64,000 nucleotides of DNA from Escherichia coli (GTDB taxonomy: Bacteria; Pseudomonadota; Gammaproteobacteria; Enterobacterales; Enterobacteriaceae), in NCBI RefSeq assembly GCF_016026235.1, contig NZ_CP065613.1; one strand, 5' to 3'. Position 1 is the stretch's first letter. Every line of letters begins with the position of its first letter. Shown in pieces: positions 28,968-54,533 of the stretch. Position numbers and translations under genes: made by a program. The notes beneath the pieces are model-generated. The model saw only the letters and a program-made list of their open reading frames with translations. It made no database searches and was not told the DNA's origin.

Positions 28968-29600
28968 TTATTTCACCAGTTCGGGCCATAAACGCAAAGT
29001 CGTTCCGGCAATCTGCATCAGTTTTTCCAGCGATGCACCTTCGCGTGCGCTGATCGACATCCCCTGAATAATACAATTAAGGAATTCTGCCAGATGTGTC
29101 ACGTCACAGTGGGTCGGGATTTCCCCGCGCGCTTGTCGTTGACATAAAAACTGCTGCAAAGTGCGCTCTTGCATCGCATGGCGTGATTTCAACGTATTGG
29201 CGATATCTCCTGAATCTGGGGAGAGGGTGGTGCAGTTGTTGATCATGAAGCAGCCTGCCGGGGTGTCTTTGCTGGTAAAGCAGTTGGCGATGGCAGCAAA
29301 ATAGTCAGCCAGCGCAGACTCCACGCTTTTCTCTTCACAAAACAGCTGTGCTTCATGCTTAGCGGCAAAACGATCGATATAGCGGTCGAGAACGGCACGA
29401 AATAACCCCTCTTTGTTGGTAAATTCCGCGTATAGCGTGGGCGCTTTGGCTCCGGTCGCTTCGACGAGGTCCGCAAGAGAAGTCGCTTCATAACCGTGTT
29501 GCCAGAACAATTTCATGGCCTTATCAAGCGCGGCATCCCTGTCGAACACTTTTGGGCGGCCACGGCTTTTTTTTACACATTGTGTTGAGTCAGTTGCCAT
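28968..29600 (-). CDS. comR: TetR-family transcriptional repressor ComR (YcfQ)
   Basis: TetR HTH (ATSLADLVEATGAKAPTLYAEF); start set at MATDSTQCVKK to give about 210 aa. Confidence 0.8.
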   Translation of the reverse strand: MATDSTQCVKKSRGRPKVFDRDAALDKAMKLFWQHGYEATSLADLVEATGAKAPTLYAEFTNKEGLFRAVLDRYIDRFAAKHEAQLFCEEKSVESALADYFAAIANCFTSKDTPAGCFMINNCTTLSPDSGDIANTLKSRHAMQERTLQQFLCQRQARGEIPTHCDVTHLAEFLNCIIQGMSISAREGASLEKLMQIAGTTLRLWPELVK

Positions 29601-29840
29601 GATGCCGTTGTACCTGGTGACTGTGAATGAAAGGTTATTATAAAAATAATCACCTCCGTTCACCAGTCCAGATCCCATAAAAATAATTGCTTTCTATTTA
29701 ACTGAAATATAAAGATTTTTAAATTAATTAATGATCGTTATAAAAAATATCTTGTATGTGATCCAGATCACATCTATCATTTAGTTATCGATCATTAAGT
29801 AATTTCTTGCGACGTCATTCATCTGCATAAGGCCACTATT

Positions 29841-30098
29841 ATGAAAAACGTAAAAACCCTCATCGCTGCGGCGATTTTAAGCTCCATGTCATTTGCCAGC
29901 TTTGCGGCTGTCGAAGTTCAGTCAACGCCAGAAGGCCAACAAAAAGTCGGTACAATCAGTGCTAACGCGGGGACAAATCTGGGATCGCTGGAAGAGCAGC
30001 TGGCGCAAAAAGCGGATGAGATGGGCGCAAAATCTTTCCGTATTACTTCTGTAACCGGTCCGAATACCCTCCATGGAACAGCAGTAATTTATAAATAA
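29841..30098 (+). CDS. bhsA: Multiple stress resistance protein BhsA (YcfR/ComC), YdgH/BhsA/McbA family
   Basis: 85-aa secreted protein with a signal peptide (MKNVKTLIAAAILSSMSFASFA), divergent from comR. Confidence 0.88.
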   Translation: MKNVKTLIAAAILSSMSFASFAAVEVQSTPEGQQKVGTISANAGTNLGSLEEQLAQKADEMGAKSFRITSVTGPNTLHGTAVIYK

Positions 30099-30136
30099 GC
30101 ATTAACCCTCATTAATGCCTGCTACTGCTGATTTTT

Positions 30137-30171
30137 TCCCCGCGACATGCCGTGTCGCGGGGATTTTTTTT
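30137..30171 (+). terminator. Intrinsic terminator after bhsA
   Basis: Perfect stem ccccgcgaca/tgtcgcgggg followed by attttttttt. Confidence 0.65.
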
Positions 30172-53879: not shown

Positions 53880-54533
53880 TTAATCTGTCACTTCTCGCCA
53901 TTCGCCATTAGCAAGATTATCCAAAGAGTAATCACCCATCGCATAGCGAATCAGTCGCAGCGTGGGGAAACCAACATGGGCGGTCATGCGGCGCACCTGG
54001 CGATTACGTCCTTCATATAAGGTGATCTTCAGCCAGCTGGTGGGAATACTTTTGCGTTCACGAATTGGTGGATTCCGCGGCCATAACCACGCAGGTTCGT
54101 CAACCAGCTCCGCGCCGGCGGGCAGGGTAGGGCCATCATTTAAGGTTACGCCATTGCGCAAGGCTTCAAGTGCGTCTTGTGTGGGAATACCTTCCACCTG
54201 CACATAATAGATTTTTCCGGTGCGTTTACCCGGCTGGGTTAAACGCGCCTGCAACGCGCCGTTATTGGTCAGCACCAGTAACCCTTCGCTATCGCGGTCA
54301 AGACGACCTGCTGCATAAACGCCCTGAACCGGGATGAATTCTTTTAATGTTTTGCGTCCGGCTTCATCGGTGAACTGCGGAAGAACATCGTAGGGTTTAT
54401 TGAACAGGATCACACGCGTGGGCTGGTTTTCAGGTTTACGCCTGGTAGAACGTTGCGAGCTGAATCGCTTAACCTGGTGATTTCTAAAAGAAGTTTTTTG
54501 CATGGTATTTTCAGAGATTATGAATTGCCGCAT
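53880..54533 (-). CDS. rluE: 23S rRNA pseudouridine synthase RluE
   Basis: 217-aa RsuA-family ORF ([17 protein letters not shown]). Confidence 0.9.

What the first reader, a model, noticed from the sequence alone, without database searches (positions are those of the whole stretch)
29757..29772. Perfect TGTGA-N6-TCACA palindrome between divergent comR and bhsA
The 16-mer TGTGATCCAGATCACA is a perfect inverted repeat whose half-sites match the CRP core consensus exactly. It sits about 70 bp upstream of bhsA and about 160 bp upstream of comR, inside a very AT-rich gap. It could be a CRP site or the operator of the TetR-family repressor ComR; I cannot tell which from sequence alone.
Basis: seen in the sequence. 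Interest (0 to 1): 0.35.

Follow-up and report, generated by a model that had tools for sequence, protein, structure and literature searches.

The report
Known CRP site in bhsA promoter
The palindrome is the already documented, near-consensus binding site of the global sugar-sensing regulator CRP in the E. coli comR–bhsA intergenic region, so it is real and functional but ordinary; the copper repressor ComR most likely binds a different conserved palindrome next to it.

Summary
The 16-mer TGTGATCCAGATCACA is at window 29757-29772, between divergent comR (TetR family) and bhsA (DUF1471) of E. coli.

- The same 16-mer is listed under a CRP ChIP-seq peak at ycfQ/bhsA in ETEC.
- The spacer is a CRP genomic-SELEX target.
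- A PWM built from the other 106 ChIP-seq sites ranks it first of 107 (21.3 of 21.8 bits).
- In 72 other enterobacterial species the half-sites stay fixed at the same place while the central 4 nt vary freely, as CRP's information profile predicts.

The site lies in the spacer between a conserved -35 (TTGACG; TTGTAT in Escherichia) and -10 (TATCAT) upstream of bhsA. The most likely mechanism is therefore repression of bhsA by promoter occlusion, which agrees with the RegulonDB-derived sign. The start site is inferred, not measured.

An almost invariant palindromic block, TATCGATCGTTAAGT (29786-29800), sits at the predicted transcript start. It is my candidate ComR operator; this is inference.

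Verdict: real, already known, low interest.

The parts
29757..29772 (.). CRP core site TGTGATCCAGATCACA (K-12 coordinates 1168989-1169004)
   Evidence: Searches show the sequence. Searches show the same 16-mer, as its reverse complement, under the CRP ChIP-seq peak at ycfQ/bhsA. ranks it 1 of 107 by PWM. Searches show conservation across orthologues.
29754..29775 (.). Full 22-bp CRP site GTATGTGATCCAGATCACATCT
   Evidence: It matches the 22-bp CRP consensus AAATGTGATCTAGATCACATTT (recalled from established knowledge) at 18 of 22 positions, read. The 36-mer 29747-29782 is identical in 5321 of 5422 E. coli genomes.
29752..29757 (+). Inferred -35 hexamer of the bhsA promoter (TTGTAT here; TTGACG one base further left in most other genera)
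   Evidence: Searches show TTGAC(G) directly abutting the CRP core in nearly all of the 72 orthologues. The assignment is inferred; no TSS data were accessible.
29775..29780 (+). Inferred -10 hexamer of the bhsA promoter (TATCAT), 17 bp from the -35
   Evidence: One search shows TATCAT, TATGAT or TATTAT at this position in 58 of 73 sequences; most of the rest are the same hexamer shifted by a 1-nt indel. Column information content is 1.67.
29742..29750 (+). Conserved A-tract AAAAAATAT, possibly a proximal UP-element subsite of the bhsA promoter (about -45 to -37 from the inferred start)
   Evidence: Searches show conservation (information content 1.73). The UP-element reading is my inference from the known consensus AAAAAARNR.
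29786..29800 (.). Nearly invariant block TATCGATCATTAAGT (TATCGATCGTTAAGT in K-12 and the consensus), a near-palindrome around CGATCG at the predicted +1 to +14; candidate ComR operator
   Evidence: One search shows zero mismatches to TATCGATCGTTAA in 69 of 73 sequences, at a fixed +27/+28 from the CRP centre. One search gives information content 1.87. One search finds no RNA structure. The block is lost together with bhsA in the comR-only loci. ComR binding is inferred.
29728..29741 (.). Left partner TTAATGATCGTTAT (consensus TTAACGATCGTTAT, containing the perfect 12-bp palindrome TAACGATCGTTA); weaker operator candidate or part of the UP region
   Evidence: I1 shows 20-nt arms 29721-29740 and 29786-29805 that are 90% complementary. 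One search shows 0-3 mismatches at -30 from the CRP centre, and that the 18/20 inverted repeat was never reached in 200 shuffles.
29636..29649 (-). comR-proximal conserved block; on the minus strand it reads ATTATTTTTATAAT and ends in a TATAAT -10 (29641-29636)
   Evidence: Searches give information content 1.78. It is the only block retained in the four species that kept comR but lost bhsA.
28968..29600 (-). comR (ycfQ, b1111), TetR-family repressor, 210 aa
29841..30098 (+). bhsA (ycfR/comC, b1112), DUF1471 outer-membrane stress protein, 85 aa

Best explanation
The palindrome is a high-affinity binding site for cAMP-CRP, and it lies inside the core promoter of bhsA. The 16-bp core fills the spacer between a conserved -35 (29752-29757) and -10 (29775-29780), so the site centre is about 22-23 bp upstream of the inferred start near 29787. 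When cAMP is high, a CRP dimer bound there should exclude RNA polymerase and lower bhsA transcription. bhsA is therefore favoured when glucose is present and when stress or copper relieves ComR. ComR, the local TetR-family repressor, most likely acts through the adjacent invariant palindromic block at 29786-29800, and perhaps its left partner at 29728-29741, rather than through the CRP palindrome.

Shown in published work: CRP binds this spacer in vivo and in vitro.

Shown here: the site is the best CRP match among ChIP-seq-defined sites; its pattern of evolutionary constraint is CRP-like; and it sits between conserved promoter hexamers.

Inferred: the transcription start, occlusion as the mechanism, and the identity of the ComR operator.
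For: - Binding: CRP ChIP-seq in ETEC H10407 lists TGTGATCTGGATCACA, the reverse complement, at ycfQ/bhsA. CRP genomic SELEX lists ycfQ<>bhsA. A later paper cites an EMSA showing CRP binding upstream of ycfR.
- Sign: a RegulonDB/EcoCyc-based study files bhsA as a type-2 incoherent CRP feed-forward loop and states that CRP is the repressor in that class.
- Sequence: a leave-one-out PWM gives 21.3 of a possible 21.77 bits, rank 1 of 107; the next best hit in the window scores 12.1. The 22-mer matches the consensus at 18 of 22 positions.
- Evolution: in all 72 orthologous comR-bhsA spacers, nGTGA-N4-GATCACA is present at a fixed distance from bhsA while the central 4 nt vary (information content 0.64 against 1.7-1.94 for the half-sites). 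The correlation with the CRP information profile is r = 0.71.
- Population: the 36-mer is identical in 5321 of 5422 E. coli genomes.
- Geometry: TTGAC(G) and TATNAT hexamers flank the site in nearly all species.
- Module: four species that lost bhsA but kept comR also lost the site, so it belongs to the bhsA promoter.
Against: - No experimentally mapped bhsA start site could be retrieved, so the -22.5 position and the occlusion mechanism rest on conserved hexamers alone.
- The simple promoter scan did not call this hexamer pair in the E. coli sequence. Shimada 2014 suggested a different hexamer pair (TTCACC-17-AATAAT) for bhsA.
- The GA at 29766-29767 is invariant, although CRP cares little about these positions. 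Something besides CRP also constrains the right half.
- The original papers (Zheng 2004, Zhang 2007, Mermod 2012) were not readable here, so the repressor sign comes from secondary sources.
Confidence: 0.7

Rival explanations
1. The palindrome is the operator of the TetR-family repressor ComR, alone or shared with CRP. Copper releases ComR from it to induce bhsA.
For: - It is a palindrome in the spacer between a TetR-family gene and its divergent target, which is the usual place for such operators.
- Purified ComR binds the comC/bhsA promoter region, and a review places the site '60 bp upstream' of comC. The palindrome's 3' edge is 69 bp upstream.
- From my own knowledge, some TetR-family proteins, such as SlmA, read GTGA/TCAC half-sites.
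Against: - CRP alone accounts for the site completely: top PWM score, ChIP-seq, SELEX.
- The central bases drift freely, and the first T varies as expected for CRP.
- A different, better conserved palindrome (29786-29800; 41-55 bp upstream of the ATG) has no other explanation and lies at least as close to '60 bp upstream'.
- ComR ChIP-exo gave no peak in this spacer, though that experiment found only three weak peaks anywhere.
Confidence: 0.1
2. CRP bound here activates bhsA as a class II activator, from a weaker downstream -10 (TAAGTA, 29796-29801) with a start near 29807-29808. That would put the site at about -42.5 to -43.5.
For: - Class II spacing is the commonest arrangement for CRP sites (about -40.5).
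- The block containing TAAGT is strongly conserved.
Against: - The database-derived sign is repression.
- TAAGTA is a poor -10 (3 of 6).
- A much better -35/-10 pair brackets the CRP site and is conserved across genera.
- The spacing would be 1-2 bp off the canonical -41.5.
Confidence: 0.12
3. The site also controls comR. CRP bound here blocks a distal comR promoter whose -10 would be TATAAC on the minus strand (29742-29737), so that a single CRP dimer represses both divergent genes.
For: - The type-2 incoherent feed-forward classification implies that CRP also represses comR.
- RTTATA, which reads TATAAY on the minus strand, is conserved at 29737-29742.
Against: - There is no conserved -35 for such a promoter; that position falls in the variable centre of the CRP site.
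- comR has a conserved proximal TATAAT (29641-29636) that persists when the CRP site is deleted.
- The A-tract is equally well explained as an UP element for bhsA.
Confidence: 0.2
4. It is a chance palindrome with no function.
For: 6 of 100 shuffles of the window contain at least one TGTGA-N6-TCACA.
Against: - Position and half-sites are conserved in all 72 other species.
- The sequence is identical in 98% of E. coli genomes.
- CRP binding has been published.
Confidence: 0.01

Closest known systems
Canonical cAMP-CRP binding sites of E. coli (consensus AAATGTGATCTAGATCACATTT), specifically the catalogued ycfQ/bhsA site
   Same: The sequence is identical to the site reported under the ETEC CRP ChIP-seq peak. 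It has the same TGTGA-N6-TCACA core, a GATC on each side of the centre as in the consensus, and the same locus in K-12 (1168989-1169004).
   Different: Nothing differs in the site itself. It is unusual only in being closer to consensus than any other site in the ChIP-seq list (rank 1 of 107), and in apparently lying in a promoter spacer (repression) rather than at -41.5 or -61.5 (activation).
CRP-repressed promoters in which the site overlaps the core promoter (in the literature, for example cyaA P2 and crp itself; recalled from my own knowledge, not tested here)
   Same: A CRP site between or over the -35 and -10 elements should exclude RNA polymerase.
   Different: The bhsA start site was not verified here. 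A second local repressor, ComR, acts on the same promoter.
TetR-family operators in divergent regulator-target spacers (tetO, the QacR IR1 site, the AcrR operator)
   Same: The element is a palindrome in the spacer between a TetR-family gene and its divergently transcribed target.
   Different: The palindrome is fully accounted for by CRP. The flanking CGATCG-centred palindromes (29786-29800 and 29728-29741) fit the operator role better. No ComR footprint was available.

Membership tests
cAMP-CRP binding site | Two-fold symmetric site with TGTGA-N6-TCACA core half-sites | tested here: met
   There are 0 mismatches in either half-site, and 18 of 22 positions match the 22-bp consensus.
cAMP-CRP binding site | Score within the range of experimentally bound sites | tested here: met
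   A leave-one-out PWM from 106 ChIP-seq sites gives 21.3 bits (maximum 21.77), rank 1 of 107.
cAMP-CRP binding site | Physical binding by CRP | not testable with these tools
   Published: a ChIP-seq peak with this 16-mer; genomic SELEX of ycfQ<>bhsA; an EMSA cited.
cAMP-CRP binding site | Evolutionary constraint that follows CRP's base preferences: half-sites fixed, central spacer free | tested here: met
   Across the 73 aligned spacers, half-site information content is 1.7-1.94 and that of the central 4 nt is 0.64; r = 0.71 with the CRP information profile. The invariant GA at 29766-29767 goes beyond what CRP needs.
cAMP-CRP binding site | Position relative to a promoter that explains a regulatory effect | tested here: inconclusive
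   The site lies between conserved -35 and -10 hexamers, which predicts repression, as curated. No mapped start site was available.
TetR-family (ComR) operator | Palindrome in the spacer between the regulator and its target gene | tested here: met
   This feature is not specific: three palindromes in the spacer satisfy it.
TetR-family (ComR) operator | Binding by ComR that is released by the inducer (copper) | not testable with these tools
   Only secondary statements were found: ComR binds the comC promoter region, about 60 bp upstream of comC. ChIP-exo found no peak in this spacer.
TetR-family (ComR) operator | Conserved element not explained by another factor | tested here: not met
   CRP explains the palindrome fully. 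The unexplained conserved element is 29786-29800.
FNR site (TTGAT-N4-ATCAA) | T rather than G at the discriminating first position of each half-site (TTGAT against GTGAT) | tested here: not met
   Both halves read GTGAT/ATCAC, and G is invariant in the orthologues.
CRP-S (Sxy-dependent) site | TGCGA core half-sites | tested here: not met
   Both cores are TGTGA/TCACA. The family definition is from the abstract of PMC1635313.

The most novel reading that the evidence does not exclude
The CRP site is the centre of a conserved dyad of about 85 bp. Two CGATCG-centred palindromes lie 30 bp to the left and 27-28 bp to the right of the CRP centre, forming an inverted repeat with 20-nt arms that was never reached in shuffles. 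If both palindromes are ComR operators, the sharp DNA bend that CRP induces could bring two ComR dimers together. Catabolite state and copper or stress signals would then be integrated through a CRP-assisted repression complex, loosely analogous to CRP-CytR nucleoprotein complexes, rather than by two independent repressors. The three to four Dam GATC sites inside these elements could add methylation sensitivity.
Probability: 0.08. Interest if true: 0.45.

Novelty: already known. Interest (0 to 1): 0.12.

Why it matters
The finding adds little. The CRP site at comR/bhsA is already in ChIP-seq and SELEX catalogues and in RegulonDB-derived networks. The analysis is useful as a clean example: comparative data separate a global-regulator site from the operator of the local TetR-family repressor, and a naive 'most conserved palindrome in the spacer' rule would have mis-assigned it. 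It also gives a specific, testable candidate for the ComR operator (29786-29800), for which I could retrieve no base-level definition. It further suggests that bhsA, a stress, biofilm and copper-permeability gene, is gated jointly by carbon status and by ComR at a single compact promoter.

Tried and rejected
- **Primary papers.** I could not read Mermod 2012, Zhang 2007 or Deng 2011; none is held. The ComR site position and the CRP sign therefore rest on secondary sources.
- **ComR ChIP-exo supplement.** It lists only three weak peaks (cspA, metR, uxuA) and none at comR/bhsA, so it is uninformative about the operator.
- **Literature search for the 16-mer.** It returned only the ETEC ChIP-seq paper and an unrelated cyanobacterial CRP prediction.
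- **Simple promoter scan.** It did not call the TTGTAT-17-TATCAT pair in E. coli. The promoter assignment rests on the much better hexamers in other genera.
- **RNA explanations for the conserved blocks.** Rfam found nothing in the spacer, and the predicted 5' UTR folds no better than shuffles (z = 0.67).
- **A comR-less genome that keeps bhsA** (E. fergusonii is reported to lack ycfQ). I considered looking for one to see which element decays.
- **Other regulator sites.** FNR and CRP-S readings were rejected on the discriminating bases. CytR was rejected because there are no tandem CRP sites or CytR octamers.

Full report
**Observation**

The 16-mer TGTGATCCAGATCACA is at window 29757-29772. 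It is the only TGTGA-N6-TCACA in the 64-kb window. The expected count is 0.06, and 6 of 100 dinucleotide shuffles contained at least one. Strictly, the symmetric arms are 7 bp (TGTGATC/GATCACA), or 8 bp with the flanking A/T, around a non-symmetric CA centre (I7).

The locus is the E. coli comR(ycfQ)-bhsA(ycfR/comC) spacer, found in 5422 of 5426 complete E. coli genomes.
- comR is 28968-29600 on the minus strand: 210 aa, TetR_N + TetR_C_13. The longer 236-aa ORF overshoots the real start.
- bhsA is 29841-30098 on the plus strand: 85 aa, PF07338.
- The site centre is 76.5 bp from the bhsA ATG and 164.5 bp from the comR ATG.
- The 240-bp spacer is 31% GC, against 50% for the window.

**What it is**

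Published data already place CRP on this sequence.
- Haycocks et al. 2015 (PMC4287617) list a high-confidence CRP ChIP-seq peak in ETEC H10407 between ycfQ and bhsA. Its predicted site is TGTGATCTGGATCACA, the exact reverse complement of the window's 16-mer.
- Shimada et al. 2011 (PMC3105977) list ycfQ<>bhsA among the divergent gene pairs recovered by genomic SELEX with purified CRP.
- A Klebsiella paper (PMC5521740) cites Zhang et al. 2007 for an EMSA showing CRP binding upstream of ycfR.

I built a symmetrised PWM from the other 106 sites in the ChIP-seq table. The window site scores 21.3 bits of a possible 21.77, which is rank 1 of 107. The next best hit anywhere in the window scores 12.1. 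The 22-mer GTATGTGATCCAGATCACATCT matches the CRP consensus AAATGTGATCTAGATCACATTT at 18 of 22 positions.

**Comparative evidence**

One scan of species-representative genomes with ComR returned 80 loci. In 72 of them bhsA is divergent from comR, with a spacer of 238-250 bp (one of 269 bp). In every one, nGTGA-N4-GATCACA lies 76-84 bp upstream of the bhsA ATG.
- The central four bases vary freely: TCCA, TCAA, CGCA, CCTG, GCTG, TGCG, TGAA and others.
- The first T of TGTGA varies.
- GTGA and TCACA are essentially invariant.

Column information content is 1.7-1.94 for the half-sites and 0.64 for the centre. It correlates with the CRP information profile at r = 0.71. Within E. coli, the 36-mer 29747-29782 is identical in 5321 of 5422 genomes. 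This is the signature of a CRP site under purifying selection.

One excess is not explained by CRP: the GA at 29766-29767 is invariant, although CRP has little preference there.

**Promoter context and mechanism**

The alignment shows conserved hexamers on both sides of the core.
- Directly 5' of the core, most genera have TTGACG. Escherichia has TTGTAT at 29752-29757, shifted by one base.
- On the 3' side there is TATCAT, TATGAT or TATTAT at 29775-29780.
- The spacer between them is 17-18 bp.
- Upstream lies a conserved A-tract (29742-29750) that resembles a proximal UP subsite.

I infer a sigma-70 promoter for bhsA that starts near 29787, with the CRP core filling the -35/-10 spacer (centre about -22.5). 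That geometry predicts repression by exclusion of RNA polymerase. This agrees with a RegulonDB/EcoCyc-based study that files bhsA as a type-2 incoherent CRP feed-forward loop and states that CRP is the repressor in that class.

The start site is not verified. The simple scan did not call this hexamer pair in E. coli, and Shimada 2014 proposed different hexamers. A class II activation reading, from a weak TAAGTA -10, remains possible with a probability of about 0.12.

**Where ComR probably binds**

The most conserved element of the spacer is not the CRP site. It is TATCGATCGTTAAGT at 29786-29800; the window strain has A at 29794 where K-12 has G.
- It has zero mismatches over 13 nt in 69 of 73 sequences, at a fixed +27/+28 from the CRP centre.
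- It is a near-palindrome around CGATCG at the predicted +1 to +14.
- Neither CRP nor the promoter hexamers explain it.
- It has no Rfam match.
- It is unpaired in a 5' UTR that folds no better than shuffles.

A weaker partner lies 30 bp to the left of the CRP centre: consensus TAACGATCGTTA, window 29730-29741. Together the two form an inverted repeat with 20-nt arms and 18 of 20 matches (I1). That value was never reached in 200 dinucleotide shuffles, whose maximum was 16.

I propose the right block as the ComR operator. This is inference. The only positional statement I could retrieve is secondary: the site is '60 bp upstream' of comC, and ComR does not regulate itself. ComR ChIP-exo gave no peak in this spacer.

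**Natural control**

Four species kept comR but lost bhsA (L058, L061, L072, L073). They also lost the CRP site and both flanking palindromes. They kept only the comR-proximal block at 29636-49, which carries a TATAAT on the minus strand. The CRP site is therefore part of the bhsA promoter module and is not required for comR's proximal promoter.

**Verdict**

The ComR-operator reading has no positive support; I put it at about 0.1, and it is not mutually exclusive with CRP. Novelty: already known. Interest is low.

The only mildly new outputs are a specific candidate ComR operator and the concentric dyad architecture. The dyad leaves open a low-probability model in which the CRP-induced bend helps ComR dimers on the two flanks to cooperate.

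Noticed in passing
window 29721-29740 and 29786-29805: An inverted repeat with 20-nt arms (18 of 20 complementary) is almost concentric with the CRP site. Each arm contains a CGATCG-centred palindrome. The value was never reached in 200 dinucleotide shuffles. The right arm is nearly invariant across 72 species.
   Followed up: yes
window 29733-29793: Four Dam GATC sites (29733, 29760, 29766, 29790) fall within 61 nt, the only such cluster in the window. Two are inside the CRP core and one is in each flanking palindrome. The GATC of the right CRP half-site and of the right block are conserved across genera. Possible methylation or SeqA sensitivity was not examined.
   Followed up: partly
window 29736 and 29794: The window strain differs from K-12 at four spacer positions. 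Two of them lie in the flanking palindromes (C for T at 29736, A for G at 29794), and together they make the two arms more complementary to each other. Only 63 of 5424 E. coli genomes are at least 99% identical to the window over 29560-29900.
   Followed up: partly
window 54399-54414: ATTGAACAGGATCACA is the third-best CRP PWM hit in the window (11.8 bits). It is the exact 16-mer listed as the CRP ChIP-seq site at (rluE)/icd in ETEC.
   Followed up: no
window ~30071-30170: K-12 RefSeq annotates a small RNA, bhsB (b4832), that overlaps the 3' end of bhsA and its terminator. Rfam gives only sub-threshold, terminator-like matches there.
   Followed up: no
L058, L061, L072, L073 (upstream of comR, locus positions ~1080-1500): Four species (two labelled Enterobacter sp., Pseudescherichia vulneris and 'Escherichia sp. 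ESNIH1') retain comR but have lost bhsA and its whole promoter module. An ldtC-like gene now lies next to comR, which leaves ComR without its only known target.
   Followed up: partly
L062/L076 and L065/L080: Kosakonia sacchari SP1 and K. arachidis each carry two comR-bhsA pairs. Both copies keep the full architecture of CRP site plus flanking blocks.
   Followed up: no
window 29630-29648 and 29729-29747: The comR-proximal block and the left palindrome block are direct-repeat relatives (roughly AAyrAyCrTTATAAAAAT). In the bhsA-less species the proximal copy reads AACGATCATTATAAAAATAA, almost identical to the left-block consensus. Its meaning is unclear: an operator copy, or -10/UP-like AT-rich sequence.
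   Followed up: partly
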